Virus record (IMG/VR): IMGVR_UViG_2541047846_000004
Source: a virus
Taxonomy: Duplodnaviria; Heunggongvirae; Uroviricota; Caudoviricetes
Length of the DNA stretch: 5,629 nt
Strand: one strand, 5' to 3'
Shown here: positions 1 to 5,629 of the stretch, one piece after another
Layout: each line of letters starts with the position of its first letter
How positions within the stretch are numbered: the stretch's first letter is position 1
Notes under the pieces: generated by a model
What the model was told of the DNA's origin: nothing
The model's input: only the letters and a program-made list of their open reading frames with translations
Databases searched by the model: none
Made by a program: the position numbers and the translations under genes

Positions 1-2929
<2,929 letters not shown>

Positions 2930-2947
2930 ATTTTATAACCCAGATAC

Positions 2948-2976
2948 GGGCGCCAGAAATGGCGCCTTTTTTATTT
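2948..2976 (+). terminator. Putative rho-independent terminator hairpin between J and stf
   Basis: GGCGCC (2949..2954) and GGCGCC (2961..2966) are self-complementary and form a 6-bp GC stem (a possible G-U pair extends it to 7) around the 6-nt loop AGAAAT. The stem is followed immediately by TTTTTTATTT (2967..2976). It sits 19 nt after the J stop codon. Confidence 0.6.
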
Positions 2977-2981
2977 GTGGA
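2977..2981 (+). promoter_or_regulatory. Shine-Dalgarno sequence for the stf-like gene
   Basis: GGAG lies within GTGGAGTGAATATG, 6 nt upstream of ATG 2988. Confidence 0.5.
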
Positions 2982-2987
2982 GTGAAT

Positions 2988-5048
2988 ATGGCAGTACAGA
3001 TTTCAGGCGTGCTGAAAGACGGTGCAGGAAAACCGATACAGAACTGCACCATTCAGCTCAAAGCAAAACGTAACAGCACCACGGTTGTGGTGAACACGGT
3101 GGCCTCAGAAAATCCGGATGAAGCCGGACGTTACAGCATGGATGTCGAGTATGGCCAGTACAGCGTTATCCTGCTGGTTGAAGGTTTTCCGCCTTCACAT
3201 GCCGGGGCCATCACCGTGTATGAGGATTCTAAGCCGGGGACATTGAATGATTTTCTGGGCGCTGCAACAGAAGATGATGTTCGTCCGGAGGCACTGTATC
3301 GTTTTGAAAAGATGGTGGAAGAGGTGGCACGCAACGCTGAAGCCGCCTCTCAGAGCGCAGCGGCAGCAAAGAAATCAGAAACAGCAGCGGCATCGTCCAG
3401 GAATGCGGCGAAAACATCAGAGACGAATGCAGGTAACAGCGCGAAAGCGGCAGCTTCTTCAAAAACAGCCGCACAAAACGCAGCAACAGCGGCAGAACGT
3501 TCAGAGACAAATGCCCGTGCGTCAGAAGAAGCCTCCGCAGACAGTGAAGAGGCTTCCCGCCGTAATGCAGAGTCAGCCGCTGAAAATGCCGGAGTCGCCA
3601 CCACAAAAGCGCGGGAGGCCGCAGCAGACGCAACAAAGGCCGGGCAGAAAAAGGATGAGGCTCTGTCGGCAGCGACACGGGCTGAAAAGGCGGCAGACCG
3701 CGCAGAAGTCGCAGCGGAAGTGACTGCAGAGCCCTATGCGAATATAGTGCCGCCGCTGCCTGATGTGTGGATACCGTTTAACGATTCACTGGATATGATT
3801 GCGGGTTTTTCTCCGGGCTATAAAAAAATAGCTATTGGTGACGATGTGGTTCAGGTCGCCAGTGATAAACAGGTTAATTTCAGTCGCGCATCAACGGCAA
3901 CATATATCAACAAATCTGGCGAACTGAAAACGGCGGAAATTAATGAGCCGCGATTTGAGTGTGATGGCCTGCTTATTGAGGGACAAAGAACGAACTACAT
4001 GCTCAATTCGGAAAGTCCAGCCAGCTGGGGGAAGTCATCAAACATGGATGTGCCCGAAACCGGGACAGATAGTTTTGGTTTTACTTATGGAAAGTTTGTC
4101 TGCAACGATTCTCTGGTTGGGCAAACTTCGGCTATTAATATGGCATCAATTGCTGCAACAAAGTCAGTTGATGTCTCAGGCGATAACAAGTACGTGACAA
4201 CCTCATGCCGTTTTAAAACAGAACGACAGGTAAGGTTACGTATACGGTTTGATAAGTATGATGGTAGTGCAACAACTTTTCTTGGCGATGCGTACATTGA
4301 TACGCAAACGCTTGAAATTAATATGACAGGTGGGGCTGCCGGCAGAATTACGGCACGAGTCAGGAAGGATAAGACCACAGGCTGGATTTTTGCAGAGGCA
4401 ACGATTCAGGCAATTGATGGTGAGTTAAAAATAGGCTCTCAGATACAGTATTCTCCTGAGCGGGGTGGGGCAACAGTATCTGGTGACTATATTTATCTTG
4501 CCACCCCACAAGTAGAGAATGGGCCGTGTGTATCATCATTTATTATTTCAGGAGGCAGCGCAACGACAAGAGCCAGTGATTTGGTTAGTATCCCCACCAG
4601 AAATAATCTTTATAAGTTACCATTTACTTTTTTACTTGAGATTCATAAAAACTGGGATATTGCACCAAACGCCGCACCCCGCGTGTGGGATATAGCAGCA
4701 GCCAATACCGGGCAATCAGCAATTGCAGCAATCAACAGAGGTAGTGGTAAGTTATATATGAGTCTGTCAAACCCTTCAGGCTTGTATGTTAATAGCGCAG
4801 CGACAGATGTATTTGCAGAGAAAACCACATTTGGATGTATTGCAAAAGCTGATGGTCACTTTCATGTGGTGACAAATGGTAAAGCGGTTAATGAAGTTTA
4901 TTGTGAATATAATGGTGTGACCGCTGATAAAAATATCCGATTTGGAGGGCAGACGAATACTGGAGAACGACATCTGTTTGGCCATATTCGCAATTTCCGC
5001 ATATGGCATAAAGAATTAAATGACAGGCAATTAAAAGAGGTCGTATGA
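2988..5048 (+). CDS. stf: Side tail fibre protein (Stf-like): lambda-Stf-type N-terminal attachment domain, Ala/Ser-rich stalk, divergent C-terminal lectin-like (LamG-type) receptor-binding domain
   Basis: The N-terminus MAVQISGVLKDGAGKPIQNCTIQLKAKRNSTTVVVNT.ASENPDEAGRYSMDVEYGQYSVILLVEGFPPSHAGAITVYEDSKPGTLNDFL is near-identical to my recollection of lambda Stf (MAVKISGVLKDG...). The ORF track starts at GTG 2982, but ATG 2988 matches the homologue start and has a GGAG Shine-Dalgarno. The C-terminal end (...NIRFGGQTNTGERHLFGHIRNFRIWHKELNDRQLKEV) resembles the terminal strand motif of concanavalin-A-like / LamG jelly-roll domains. Stop is TGA 5046..5048. Confidence 0.85.
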   Translation: MAVQISGVLKDGAGKPIQNCTIQLKAKRNSTTVVVNTVASENPDEAGRYSMDVEYGQYSVILLVEGFPPSHAGAITVYEDSKPGTLNDFLGAATEDDVRPEALYRFEKMVEEVARNAEAASQSAAAAKKSETAAASSRNAAKTSETNAGNSAKAAASSKTAAQNAATAAERSETNARASEEASADSEEASRRNAESAAENAGVATTKAREAAADATKAGQKKDEALSAATRAEKAADRAEVAAEVTAEPYANIVPPLPDVWIPFNDSLDMIAGFSPGYKKIAIGDDVVQVASDKQVNFSRASTATYINKSGELKTAEINEPRFECDGLLIEGQRTNYMLNSESPASWGKSSNMDVPETGTDSFGFTYGKFVCNDSLVGQTSAINMASIAATKSVDVSGDNKYVTTSCRFKTERQVRLRIRFDKYDGSATTFLGDAYIDTQTLEINMTGGAAGRITARVRKDKTTGWIFAEATIQAIDGELKIGSQIQYSPERGGATVSGDYIYLATPQVENGPCVSSFIISGGSATTRASDLVSIPTRNNLYKLPFTFLLEIHKNWDIAPNAAPRVWDIAAANTGQSAIAAINRGSGKLYMSLSNPSGLYVNSAATDVFAEKTTFGCIAKADGHFHVVTNGKAVNEVYCEYNGVTADKNIRFGGQTNTGERHLFGHIRNFRIWHKELNDRQLKEVV
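3340..3720 (+). repeat. Low-complexity Ala/Ser/Thr/Glu-rich repeat region encoding the fibre stalk (coiled-coil-like)
   Basis: The protein segment ASQSAAAAKKSETAAASSRNAAKTSETNAGNSAKAAASSKTAAQNAATAAERSETNARASEEAS... contains recurring SETNA / AAKxSE motifs. The DNA is GCN-codon rich and produces spurious long ORFs in other frames and on the minus strand (3247..3723 +, 3229..3678 -, 3350..3604 -). Confidence 0.6.
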
Positions 5049-5323
5049 AAGATTTAACTTTGAAGTTTCATGACAAACTGCAGTTTAAGGCCTTCCTGTC
5101 ATCTCTTGACTGGGAGGAGGATGAAGACCTCCAGAATAAACTGTTAGTCGATGAAATTGGTTTCACCTACACAGAAACAGGGGTAACAGAAGAGGGAGAA
5201 CCTGTCTGTGTCCGGAATGACGGTTATTTTGTCAACATTCGCATTCTTGATGACTTGTTTGATGTTTCTGTATTCTCTGATTATGTCGTGGAGCTGGAAA
5301 CACCGCTTCGGGAATGGAGCTGA
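5045..5323 (+). CDS. Hypothetical small acidic protein (92 aa), translationally coupled to stf; function unknown (candidate fibre-associated accessory or chaperone)
   Basis: Its ATG 5045..5047 overlaps the stf stop TGA 5046..5048 (ATGA overlap), and GAGG 5037..5040 precedes it. The product is strongly acidic (D/E-rich: ...DWEEDEDLQNKLLVDEIGFTYTETGVTEEGEP...). It shares the AT-rich composition of the stf C-terminal domain. I do not recognise the family. Confidence 0.6.
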   Translation: MKDLTLKFHDKLQFKAFLSSLDWEEDEDLQNKLLVDEIGFTYTETGVTEEGEPVCVRNDGYFVNIRILDDLFDVSVFSDYVVELETPLREWS

Positions 5324-5330
5324 AAGGAGG
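5324..5330 (+). promoter_or_regulatory. Strong Shine-Dalgarno sequence (AAGGAGG) for the downstream membrane-protein ORF
   Basis: AAGGAGG at 5324..5330, 5 nt upstream of ATG 5336. Confidence 0.7.
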
Positions 5331-5335
5331 AAATA

Positions 5336-5629
5336 ATGGATATAAGCCCCTTACTTCATGCGCTTTGTGCTGTGGCTGCGCAGATACTGGTTGGTCTTTT
5401 TACCGGAAACTGGGCTTACGGAGCGATAGCCGGTTGTACGTTCTTCATTGCGCGTGAACATACCCAGGCAGAATATCGCTGGATTGAAATGTTCGGGCAT
5501 GGCAAGCGAATGAATATGCCGTGGTGGGGCGGTTTTGATCCGCGAGCTTGGGATGTGGCAAGCCTGATGGATTTTGCTGTGCCGGTGGTGGCGTGTCTGC
5601 TGGTCTGGCTGTTGGTTAATCGTGGGTGA
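5336..5629 (+). CDS. Hypothetical small membrane protein (97 aa, 2-3 predicted transmembrane helices); function unknown
   Basis: ATG 5336 follows a canonical AAGGAGG Shine-Dalgarno, and the ORF ends at TGA 5627..5629, the window edge. Hydrophobic segments are LLHALCAVAAQILVGLFTGNWAYGAIAGCTFFIA and VASLMDFAVPVVACLLVWLLV, with a Trp/Gly/Pro-rich loop (MPWWGGFDPRAW) between them. GC content looks host-like, unlike the preceding AT-rich block. Confidence 0.6.
   Translation: MDISPLLHALCAVAAQILVGLFTGNWAYGAIAGCTFFIAREHTQAEYRWIEMFGHGKRMNMPWWGGFDPRAWDVASLMDFAVPVVACLLVWLLVNRG

What the first reader, a model, noticed from the sequence alone, without database searches (positions are those of the whole stretch)
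5336..5629. 97-aa membrane protein with a strong ribosome-binding site at the distal end of the tail module (candidate lysogenic-conversion or exclusion gene)
The ORF has a canonical AAGGAGG Shine-Dalgarno, 2-3 predicted transmembrane helices and a Trp/Gly/Pro-rich loop. The position just beyond the fibre genes is a known hotspot in lambdoid phages for accessory cargo genes such as lom and bor in lambda. A small inner-membrane protein here could act in superinfection exclusion or envelope modification. It is unlikely to be a lysis holin, because it lies in the tail module rather than a lysis cassette. The function is purely inferred.
Basis: inference. Interest (0 to 1): 0.5.

Follow-up and report, generated by a model that had tools for sequence, protein, structure and literature searches.

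The report
Conserved small phage membrane protein, function unknown
The ORF is a real 97-residue, three-helix inner-membrane protein from an uncharacterised family that sits just after receptor-binding tail genes in many unrelated phages and also occurs alone in bacterial chromosomes, so it is an accessory gene rather than a virion or lysis part, and its role (possibly blocking incoming phages) is untested.

Summary
ORF 5336-5629 (+) has AAGGAGG 5 nt upstream of its ATG, encodes 97 aa, and is 100% identical to phage 21 CPT_21_24 ("putative membrane protein").

It belongs to PHROG 1443 (function unknown). It has no Pfam, NCBIfam, PADLOC or PDB match. The AlphaFold model is confident (pLDDT 92.8) and shows three helices.

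The family has at least 429 clusters at 50% identity. Its core is nearly invariant: H8, R40-E41, Q44-A45-E46, W72, P83.

In phages the gene lies directly after receptor-binding-protein genes of unrelated types:
- lambda-like, before the sitABCD cargo;
- P22-like, between tailspike and int;
- P2-like, between the fibre-assembly gene and the sheath gene;
- an Ackermannviridae contig, between two tailspike genes.

It also occurs as a syntenic chromosomal gene in Aeromonas, Leclercia, Silvania and sphingomonads. It is therefore autonomous and accessory, not structural, not a chaperone and not the holin.

Charge bias across 92 homologues predicts N-in/C-out with the conserved loop cytoplasmic. This contradicts the TMHMM note in the phage 21 record.

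The gene is often translationally coupled to the upstream tail gene and has no own promoter or terminator, so it is not a classic moron.

The exclusion function is only a best guess (about 0.3). Interest is moderate.

The parts
5324..5330 (+). Shine-Dalgarno AAGGAGG, 5 nt before the ATG and 1 nt after the stop of the upstream 92-aa ORF
   Evidence: Read directly from the sequence. The phage 21 record annotates a ribosome-binding site at the same place.
5336..5629 (+). 97-aa ORF including its stop codon. Member of PHROG 1443. Identical to phage 21 CPT_21_24 (UMO75439.1) and E. coli WP_000355360.1.
   Evidence: (E=2.4e-58, full length).
5345..5404 (+). Helix 1 (residues 4-23), transmembrane. Carries the nearly invariant H8, and Q16 (65%).
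   Evidence: AF2, hydropathy, conservation.
5411..5494 (+). Helix 2 (residues 26-53). Residues 26-39 are hydrophobic and 40-53 form a polar extension. It follows the conserved G24-N/D25 hairpin turn.
5453..5485 (+). Family signature R40-E41-x-x-Q44-A45-E46-Y47-R48-W49-I50. E41 is invariant; R40, Q44, A45 and E46 are at least 95% conserved in 92 diverse homologues.
5495..5554 (+). Trp/Gly/Pro-rich loop (residues 54-73: GHGKRMNMPWWGGFDPRAWD), with R58 (86%) and the invariant W72.
5555..5623 (+). Helix 3 (residues 74-96), transmembrane, with D79 (84%) and P83 (99%).
5045..5323 (+). Upstream 92-aa acidic soluble protein (PHROG 1361). It overlaps the stf stop by 4 nt. It is restricted to Escherichia/Shigella. 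This is context only and not a universal partner of the 97-aa family.
2988..5048 (+). Side tail fibre: Prophage tail fibre N-terminal domain (PF08400) plus a C-terminal GTA-spike-fibre / LamG-like domain. It is the receptor-binding gene that the ORF follows.

Best explanation
What is shown:
- The ORF encodes a genuine three-helix integral inner-membrane protein of a widespread, uncharacterised family (PHROG 1443; absent from Pfam, NCBIfam and PDB).
- It is an autonomous accessory gene, not a virion component, not a fibre chaperone and not the holin.
- It lies in the hypervariable slot immediately 3' of receptor-binding-protein genes in lambda-like, P22-like, P2-like and Ackermannviridae-like phages, and survives on its own in bacterial chromosomes.
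- It has no own promoter or terminator and is often translationally coupled to the preceding tail gene.

What is inferred:
- It is made with the late tail transcript, whatever is also made in lysogens.
- Topology is N-terminus in, a two-residue periplasmic turn, a conserved R-E-x-x-Q-A-E-Y-R helix and W-rich loop at the cytoplasmic face, and C-terminus out. Its working surface is then a polar cluster (H8, R40/E41, D79, plus Q44/E46/W72) inside or at the inner leaflet of the cytoplasmic membrane.
- Best guess: it acts on a conserved inner-membrane component to stop a second phage genome crossing the cytoplasmic membrane. That would be superinfection exclusion at the DNA-entry step, working like HK97 gp15, T4 Imm or P22 SieA. 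It would not act by masking a surface receptor.

Confidence by layer: real membrane protein 0.95; accessory and autonomous 0.8; cytoplasmic-loop topology 0.65; exclusion function about 0.3.
For: Gene and fold:
-.
- AF2 gives pLDDT 92.8 and three helices.

Family and conservation:
- 577 hits; 429 clusters at 50% identity.
- E41 and W72 are invariant. H8, R40, Q44, A45, E46 and P83 are at least 95% conserved in 92 homologues of 28-57% identity.

No known family:
- Pfam, NCBIfam, PADLOC, PDB sequences.

Accessory slot in several phage architectures:
- Phage 21, Nissle prophage and Perceval: stf, orf92, this ORF, then convergent sitDCBA.
- JEP4 (Lederbergvirus): tailspike, family gene (4-nt overlap), int.
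- phiHAP-1: tail-fibre assembly gene, family gene (4-nt overlap), sheath. This is the position of the P2 Z/fun hotspot, described as mixed RBP/cargo in 10.1101/2024.10.15.618418.
- Citrobacter prophage: J, pectate-lyase spike, family gene.
- Ackermannviridae contig: family gene between two tailspike genes. Isolated relatives lack it.
- Further fibre/spike neighbours.

Autonomy:
- Syntenic non-phage loci in Aeromonas, Leclercia, Silvania and sphingomonads.

Not receptor-specific:
- Adjacent RBPs are unrelated in their receptor-binding parts, while family proteins stay 55-68% identical.

Topology:
- Residues 40-73 hold 5.3 K/R on average, against 0.02 in the turn and 0.3 in the C-tail.
- The G24-N/D25 turn is conserved.
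- Natural variants have an extra N-terminal TM followed by RWRIR, or an extra C-terminal TM followed by a K-rich tail.

Precedent:
- HK97 gp15 is a small inner-membrane product of a tail-operon moron. It excludes at DNA entry and has chromosomal homologues, the YebO family (PMC3594210).
Against: - No experiment or homology links the family to exclusion.
- It is absent from PADLOC.
- About 60% identity from E. coli to Comamonas is unusually high for exclusion proteins, which tend to evolve fast. This fits an enzyme or ligand site at least as well.
- There is no promoter-like or terminator-like signal around the gene in phage 21. The 0 to -4 nt junctions with late genes argue against expression mainly from the prophage.
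- The family is vertically inherited at fixed chromosomal loci in several genera, which suggests a cellular role.
- The TMHMM note in the phage 21 record gives 2 TMDs, N-in/C-in, with the loop periplasmic. This disagrees with my topology.
Confidence: 0.35

Rival explanations
1. It is a minimal membrane enzyme, or an ion- or lipid-binding protein. The H8/R40-E41/E46/D79 cluster would be a catalytic or ligand site. It would alter inner-membrane or envelope physiology as a fitness or conversion function for the cell, and only incidentally affect phages.
For: - The polar residues are nearly invariant across distant taxa, and consecutive positions R40-I50 are conserved on all faces of the helix.
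- The polar residues lie at matching depths of the three helices.
- Core-like syntenic chromosomal copies occur in Aeromonas, Leclercia, Silvania and sphingomonads with no conserved partner gene.
- Identity between classes is very high.
Against: - No similarity to any enzyme family or solved structure.
- 97 residues is very small for an enzyme.
- No conserved operon partner hints at a pathway.
- It does not explain the repeated placement directly after receptor-binding genes.
Confidence: 0.25
2. It is a lytic-cycle helper made with the tail proteins. For example, it could prevent late superinfection or re-injection into the producing cell, or tune lysis timing as an antiholin-like modulator. 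It would not be a prophage-expressed gene.
For: - The gene is translationally coupled or tightly spaced to the late RBP genes: -4 nt in L012, L028, L031, L042, JEP4 and phiHAP-1; 0 nt in L066; 10-16 nt in E. coli, Leclercia and Citrobacter.
- No own promoter or terminator.
- It is present in virulent phages: an Ackermannviridae contig and Aeromonas jumbo phages.
- In Comamonas prophages it lies directly upstream of holin-like, endolysin-like and Rz-like genes.
Against: - Chromosomal copies without any phage genes.
- It is variably present among close relatives, i.e. dispensable.
- In phage 21, JEP4 and phiHAP-1 it is far from the lysis cassette.
Confidence: 0.17
3. It is a holin or pinholin that forms membrane lesions for lysis.
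For: - It is small, with three hydrophobic helices.
- It is adjacent to a lysis cassette in Comamonas prophages.
- One of 92 homologues gives a weak Phage_holin_8 match, E=0.0036.
Against: - In phage 21 it lies in the tail-to-cargo region and not in a lysis cassette. The well-studied S21/R21 lysis cassette lies elsewhere in that genome (established knowledge).
- It has no charged C-terminal tail. The mean C-tail is 3 residues with 0.3 K/R.
- Invariant polar motifs and stable chromosomal copies are unlike holins.
- 91 of 92 members give no holin family hit.
Confidence: 0.04
4. It is a tail-fibre assembly factor or a minor virion protein specific to the upstream fibre.
For: - It is always close to RBP genes.
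- The StfC-type fibre and the family gene are linked in Escherichia, Comamonas, Pantoea and Chelativorans.
Against: - It is an integral membrane protein.
- The adjacent RBPs are unrelated in fold: LamG-like fibre, pectate-lyase spikes and others.
- phiHAP-1 has a separate tail-fibre assembly gene just upstream.
- P22-type tailspikes need no chaperone (established knowledge).
- Orphan chromosomal copies exist.
- Lambda_4C10 keeps the gene although its stf is interrupted by mobile-element genes.
Confidence: 0.03

Closest known systems
HK97 gp15 (YebO-like moron product; superinfection exclusion at DNA entry)
   Same: - It is a small inner-membrane protein encoded inside or next to the tail operon of a lambdoid phage.
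- It is not a virion part.
- It has homologues in bacterial chromosomes outside prophages (PMC3594210).
- The ORF studied here shares the membrane location, the accessory status and the chromosomal relatives.
   Different: - No sequence relationship: there is no YebO-type or any other Pfam match.
- gp15 has its own promoter and terminator, the classic moron form. This ORF does not.
- gp15 lies between the tail chaperone and tape-measure genes, not after the fibre.
- The gp15/YebO family is restricted to Enterobacteriaceae. This family spans several proteobacterial classes.
T4 Imm and P22 SieA (inner-membrane blocks to phage DNA injection)
   Same: - Both are phage-encoded integral inner-membrane proteins that act alone.
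- T4 Imm is made by a virulent phage during lytic growth (established knowledge). This matches the presence of the family in virulent phages.
- The P22 SieA paper was found in the literature search (PMC10883804) but I saw only the start of its abstract in the list and did not open the paper.
   Different: - No homology: there is no Imm-type, Sie-type or any other Pfam match.
- The genomic position differs.
- An exclusion phenotype has not been tested for this family.
Receptor-blocking lipoproteins encoded next to receptor-binding genes (T5 Llp; phi80/N15/T1 Cor)
   Same: The gene sits beside the receptor-binding-protein gene, and the product is a small envelope protein. Cor blocks FhuA (PMC3594210).
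   Different: - Llp and Cor are outer-membrane lipoproteins specific for one receptor.
- This protein has no lipobox: residues H8-A9-L10-C11 do not fit one, and C11 is not conserved.
- It has almost no predicted periplasmic exposure.
- It accompanies RBPs with unrelated receptor-binding domains.
Cargo in the P2 Z/fun hotspot and the P22/Sf6 tailspike-int conversion slot (gtrABC, oac)
   Same: - Same genomic slots: phiHAP-1 ORF19 lies between the fibre-assembly and sheath genes.
- JEP4 gp21 lies between tailspike and int.
- The Z/fun hotspot is described as a mixed RBP-swap/cargo locus (10.1101/2024.10.15.618418).
   Different: - It is unrelated in sequence to GtrA (no Pfam match). I did not compare it with Z/fun.
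- It is co-oriented with, and overlaps, the upstream late gene. P22 gtrABC are divergently transcribed conversion genes (established knowledge).
Lambda Lom and Bor
   Same: They are accessory envelope proteins of lambdoid phages encoded near the tail-fibre end of the late region.
   Different: - Lom is an outer-membrane beta-barrel and Bor is a lipoprotein. This protein is an alpha-helical inner-membrane protein with no Pfam match of any kind.
- In phage Perceval, lom sits in its own slot between J and stf, while this gene follows stf-orf92.

Membership tests
PHROG 1443 (phage protein family, unknown function) | Full-length match to the family profile | tested here: met
   E=2.4e-58, residues 1-96 against profile positions 1-96 of 97.
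Integral alpha-helical inner-membrane protein | At least two hydrophobic helices long enough to span a bilayer | tested here: met
   Hydrophobic blocks at 3-39 and 74-95. AF2 helices 4-23, 26-53 and 74-96 at pLDDT 92.8. The TMHMM note in the phage 21 record agrees. No experimental localisation exists.
Classic moron (Juhala/Hendrix definition) | Own promoter and terminator flanking the inserted gene | tested here: not met
   No sigma-70-like promoter lies between stf and the ORF, and no intrinsic terminator follows it. The downstream 120 nt fold no better than shuffles, z=-0.6. The junctions with upstream late genes in other phages are 0 to -4 nt. Consensus scans are weak evidence.
Classic moron (Juhala/Hendrix definition) | Present or absent among otherwise similar phages, with deviating composition | tested here: met
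   It is present in one Ackermannviridae contig but not in isolated relatives. Its GC is 53%, against 43% for stfC and orf92.
Holins (class I/II/pinholin) | Encoded in a lysis cassette next to an endolysin | tested here: not met
   In the stretches read of phage 21, JEP4 and phiHAP-1 it lies among tail and cargo genes, with no lysis gene nearby. It is adjacent to a lysis cassette only in Comamonas prophages.
Holins (class I/II/pinholin) | Highly charged hydrophilic C-terminal tail | tested here: not met
   The C-tail averages 3.1 residues with 0.34 K/R across 92 homologues.
Holins (class I/II/pinholin) | Match to a holin family profile | tested here: not met
   No Pfam hit for the query. One of 92 homologues gave a sub-threshold Phage_holin_8 match.
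HK97 gp15 / YebO family | Sequence homology to YebO-like proteins | tested here: not met
   No Pfam family matched the query or 92 homologues at E<=0.1, apart from chance-level hits.
T4 Imm-type and SieB-type exclusion proteins | Sequence homology to those families | tested here: not met
   No such Pfam match. No PADLOC match.
Superinfection exclusion proteins (functional class) | Expression reduces infection by other phages at adsorption or DNA entry | not testable with these tools
   This needs plating, adsorption and DNA-entry assays.
Cor/Llp-type receptor-blocking lipoproteins | Lipoprotein signal peptide with a lipobox cysteine | tested here: not met
   The N-terminus MDISPLLHALC has no basic n-region and no L-[AS]-[GA]-C box. 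C11 is replaced by I, V or L in most homologues.
Tail fibre assembly chaperones (Tfa/gpG/gp38 type) | Soluble protein homologous to Tfa families and specific to one fibre type | tested here: not met
   It is a membrane protein with no Tfa-type Pfam or PHROG match. It occurs beside unrelated RBPs and beside a separate assembly gene in phiHAP-1.
Known anti-phage defence systems (PADLOC-DB v2) | Match to any defence protein model | tested here: not met
   Zero families matched at E<=1.

The most novel reading that the evidence does not exclude
The family is a previously unrecognised, very widespread minimal inner-membrane effector. It would be a three-helix protein with a buried His/Arg-Glu/Glu(/Asp) site at the cytoplasmic leaflet. 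It would either catalyse or bind something universal in proteobacterial membranes, or close a conserved genome-entry route. It would be shared by lambda-like, P22-like, P2-like, Ackermannviridae and jumbo phages and domesticated by bacteria. That would amount to a new, mechanistically distinct single-gene exclusion or defence (or envelope-modifying) function.
Probability: 0.15. Interest if true: 0.7.

Novelty: new member of a known kind. Interest (0 to 1): 0.4.

Why it matters
About a third of complete E. coli genomes (1,903 of 5,426) match the 730-nt query that spans the stf 3' end, orf92 and this ORF. These include Nissle 1917, ATCC 25922 and many ExPEC strains, usually next to the sitABCD iron/manganese transporter.

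The family has no Pfam or NCBIfam model and no function, although it is short, confidently modelled and highly conserved. This makes it a cheap and well-defined experimental target: one gene, obvious point mutants (H8A, E41A, E46A, W72A), and natural chromosomal copies to delete.

If it blocks phage entry, it would add a broadly distributed single-gene exclusion determinant. That would be relevant to phage therapy and to host-range prediction. If it is a tiny enzyme or ligand-binding site, it would be interesting for membrane biochemistry. If neither, it is one more hypothetical cargo gene.

Tried and rejected
- **PhoR similarity rejected as sub-threshold.** A weak match to the PhoR N-terminal membrane hairpin (E=0.037; 6 of 92 homologues, best 0.0032; cut-off 27 bits against 14.9) was noted and set aside. 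It is at most consistent with a hairpin followed by a cytoplasmic W-rich segment.
- **Literature searches found nothing.** Searches by accession or PHROG id and for phage 21, side fibre and sit found nothing on this gene.
- **Tai/Ati tail-assembly interference rejected.** I read that paper (PMC11364771). The word 'transmembrane' does not occur in it, and the phi80 tai/ati genes it describes (orf63/orf64) lie in a different region from the slot studied here.
- **Receptor-specific masking considered, then disfavoured.** The StfC-type fibre is linked to the gene in Escherichia, Comamonas, Pantoea and Chelativorans. However, the family also follows pectate-lyase spikes and other unrelated RBPs, and the predicted periplasmic exposure is minimal.
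- **Cleaved signal peptide rejected.** The phage 21 record carries a SignalP note of a 29-aa signal peptide. Against this, there is no basic n-region, H8 lies inside that segment and is nearly invariant, and AF2 packs the helix confidently.
- **The viral-contig scan added no diversity.** The best 80 of 434 hits were all near-identical E. coli sequences.
Full report
**1. The observation**

The window reads GAGC-TGA-AAGGAGG-AAATA-ATG. The stop of an upstream 92-aa ORF is at 5321-5323, the Shine-Dalgarno sequence at 5324-5330 and the ATG at 5336. The ORF runs to TGA at 5627-5629, the last base of the window, and encodes 97 aa.

Hydropathy shows hydrophobic blocks at residues 3-39 and 74-95. Between them is a polar 40-73 segment holding the Trp/Gly/Pro-rich stretch NMPWWGGFDPRAW.

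**2. Where the window comes from**

Positions 4900-5629 are 100% identical to Escherichia phage 21 (OL657228.1), to phage ev017 and to prophages of E. coli Nissle 1917, ATCC 25922, NU14 and many ExPEC strains. Of 5,426 complete E. coli genomes, 1,903 have a match.

In phage 21 the gene order is I, J, side tail fibre, 92-aa ORF, 97-aa ORF (CPT_21_24). This is followed by convergent sitDCBA, small ORFs, attP and int. The record annotates CPT_21_24 as [quoted passage not shown]. Nissle and phage Perceval have the same order.

The ORF is therefore the last co-oriented gene of the late/tail region, at the border of the cargo region.

**3. What the protein is**

It matches PHROG 1443 (unknown function) over its full length, E=2.4e-58. 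Nothing else matched:
- Pfam, NCBIfam and PADLOC gave no hit.
- PDB sequences gave no hit.
- 92 diverse homologues scanned one by one also gave no Pfam or NCBIfam hit.

The family is sizeable. There are 577 clusters at 90% identity and 429 clusters at 50% identity with E<1e-3. Almost all are single-domain proteins of 90-120 aa.

Among 92 representatives sharing only 28-57% identity with the query:
- E41 and W72 are invariant.
- H8, R40, Q44, A45, E46 and P83 are at least 95% conserved.
- Y47, R48, I50, R58, P62, D79, G24 and G29 are 75-87% conserved.

Consecutive conservation along R40-I50, and polar residues at matching depths of the three helices (H8, R40/E41, D79), suggest a specific buried site rather than a mere hydrophobic anchor. 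This last point is inference.

**4. Topology**

The 37-residue first hydrophobic block is split by a conserved G24-N/D25 turn. AF2 models it as a hairpin, so three membrane helices are more likely than two.

Across the 92 homologues, residues 40-73 carry 5.3 K/R on average. The N-tail carries 0.6, the turn 0.02 and the C-tail 0.3. By the positive-inside rule this gives N-in, loop-in and C-out.

Two natural variants agree:
- P0177 has an extra N-terminal helix followed by RWRIR before the family domain.
- P0185 has an extra C-terminal helix followed by a Lys-rich tail.

This contradicts the TMHMM note in the phage 21 record, which places the loop outside. I could not run a dedicated predictor, so I rate the cytoplasmic-loop model at about 0.65. 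If it is right, only about 2-5 residues face the periplasm.

**5. Genomic context across the family**

A scan of one genome per species gave 70 loci. They come from Escherichia, Aeromonas, Leclercia, Silvania, Pantoea, Comamonas, Acidovorax, Pigmentiphaga, Chelativorans, Devosia, many sphingomonads, Halomonas and Desulfovibrio. I called ORFs in these loci and clustered the neighbours. I then added precomputed Pfam contexts and annotated phage records.

(a) Phage contexts. The gene lies directly 3' of a receptor-binding-protein gene:
- StfC-type fibres, in Escherichia, three Comamonas species, Pantoea and Chelativorans.
- Another fibre after a J-like protein, in Leclercia (L030).
- A tailspike in Desulfovibrio with a 0-nt gap, followed by another tail gene (L066).
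- Minor tail proteins in Sphingobium.
- J followed by a pectate-lyase spike, in Citrobacter.

Three cases map onto textbook accessory slots:
- Lambda-like phages: after stf, before b-region cargo.
- P22-like JEP4: tailspike, family gene with a 4-nt overlap, then int. This is where P22 and Sf6 carry gtrABC or oac (established knowledge).
- P2/VP882-like phiHAP-1: tail-fibre assembly gene, family gene with a 4-nt overlap, then sheath. This is the position of the P2 Z/fun hotspot, described as a mixed RBP-swap/cargo locus (10.1101/2024.10.15.618418).

The gene also sits between two tailspike genes of a 160-kb Ackermannviridae contig. That contig is 96.7% identical to Salmonella phage pSal-SNUABM-02. 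Isolated relatives lack the gene, so it is a variable insertion in a virulent phage.

Weaker homologues occur in 235-kb Aeromonas jumbo phages and elsewhere, not always near tail genes.

(b) Non-phage contexts, syntenic within genera:
- Aeromonas: Pirin upstream; RIO1 and lipid A acyltransferase genes downstream (L004, L009, L011, L015, L016).
- Leclercia: a MetE-like gene and urea ABC transporter genes downstream.
- Silvania: porin and pyruvate:flavodoxin oxidoreductase genes nearby.
- Sphingomonads: ligA upstream.
- No partner gene is conserved across these contexts.

**6. What this excludes**

Virion part or fibre chaperone is excluded:
- It is a membrane protein.
- Orphan chromosomal copies exist.
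- The neighbouring RBPs are unrelated in their receptor-binding parts, while family proteins stay 55-68% identical.
- phiHAP-1 has a separate assembly gene just upstream.

Holin is excluded:
- It lies away from any lysis cassette in the stretches read of phage 21, JEP4 and phiHAP-1.
- It has no charged C-tail.
- It gives no holin profile match.
- Only in Comamonas prophages does it abut a holin-like/endolysin-like/Rz-like cassette. There the lysis genes simply follow the tail genes.

Receptor-specific masking of the Llp or Cor kind is disfavoured:
- There is no lipobox.
- There is minimal predicted periplasmic exposure.
- There is no tie to one RBP type.

Classic moron is only partly met:
- The gene is variably present and deviates in composition, 53% GC against 43% for stfC and orf92.
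- It has no promoter-like or terminator-like signals.
- It is often translationally coupled to the late gene upstream.
- It is therefore probably made with the tail proteins, whatever is also made in lysogens.

**7. Most likely function**

Shown: this is an autonomous, accessory, conserved inner-membrane protein that travels in the RBP-adjacent variable slot.

Inferred: it acts within, or at the cytoplasmic face of, the inner membrane on something conserved across Proteobacteria.

The best-fitting known paradigm is exclusion at the genome-entry step by a small inner-membrane protein. HK97 gp15 is the example I checked: it is also encoded among tail genes and also has chromosomal homologues, the YebO family (PMC3594210). 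T4 Imm and P22 SieA are further examples from established knowledge. I put this at about 0.3.

The main rival, at about 0.25, is a minimal enzyme or ligand-binding protein with a cellular role. The unusually high conservation and the vertically inherited chromosomal copies favour it. A lytic-cycle helper made with the tail genes comes next, at about 0.17.

**8. Comparison and novelty**

The gene is already catalogued (PHROG 1443; "putative membrane protein" in the phage 21 record), but it has no function and no curated family. By kind, it is a new member of the class of small phage-encoded accessory membrane proteins in RBP-adjacent cargo slots. It is not a member of any named family that I could test.

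Its interpretation is partly supported:
- The cargo/accessory and not-a-holin points are supported.
- Conversion, exclusion and envelope modification are unproven.
- Envelope modification is disfavoured by the predicted topology.

**9. Side findings**

Relative to phage 21, the window carries a 724-nt tandem duplication inside gene J (440-1163 and 1164-1887). This frameshifts J. It indicates either a defective prophage or an assembly artefact.

orf92 is a narrow Escherichia/Shigella family with a small alpha/beta fold and no informative structural match.

Noticed in passing
window 440-1163 and 1164-1887: There is a 724-nt tandem direct duplication (99-100% identical copies) inside the tail-tip gene J. 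Phage 21 and the Nissle prophage have a single copy. Because 724 is not a multiple of 3, J is split into ORFs 19..1164 and 1106..2929. This is either a defective prophage or an assembly or sequencing artefact.
   Followed up: partly
[not shown]
   Followed up: partly
window 2988-5048; L012, L021, L025, L031, L032: The side-fibre C-terminal domain (NCBIfam GTA_spike_fiber plus LamG-like) has homologues immediately upstream of the family gene in Comamonas, Pantoea and Chelativorans prophages. The fibre-plus-membrane-gene module has therefore moved across proteobacterial classes.
   Followed up: partly
L156 (Escherichia virus Lambda_4C10) 1554-3970: Three 'mobile element protein' genes lie between the annotated tail fibre CDS and orf92, where related phages have the 3' part of stf. 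orf92, the 97-aa gene and sitABCD are retained downstream.
   Followed up: no
L079-L154 (IMG/VR UViGs): Many IMG/VR prophage predictions end exactly at the stop codon of this gene (locus length 6294). The boundary callers therefore cut off the sitABCD cargo that belongs to the phage 21-type genome.
   Followed up: no
P0147, P0190, P0251 (representative-library hits): A subfamily carries an insertion of about 45 residues, charged and Tyr-rich, in the loop between the RWIE..FGK segment and the MPWWGGF segment. This shows that the loop tolerates a soluble domain.
   Followed up: no
L003 8300-10033 (Comamonas testosteroni prophage): Directly downstream of the family gene (4-nt overlap) lie two small membrane proteins, a 183-aa protein that looks like a transglycosylase-type endolysin, and an Rz-like protein. 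I read this as a lysis cassette from the translations alone; it was not checked with any profile search, and the precomputed Pfam column shows no hit for these genes.
   Followed up: partly
L004, L009, L011, L015, L016 (Aeromonas chromosomes): The family gene sits at a conserved chromosomal locus: Pirin upstream, and RIO1 kinase and two lipid A acyltransferase genes downstream on the other strand. No phage genes lie within 8 kb in L004. The reason for this conservation is unknown.
   Followed up: partly
window 5336-5521 (residues 7-62): There is a sub-threshold similarity to the PhoR N-terminal membrane hairpin (PF11808; E=0.037, also seen in 6 of 92 homologues). This is probably compositional. 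At most it is consistent with a two-helix hairpin followed by a cytoplasmic Trp-rich segment.
   Followed up: partly
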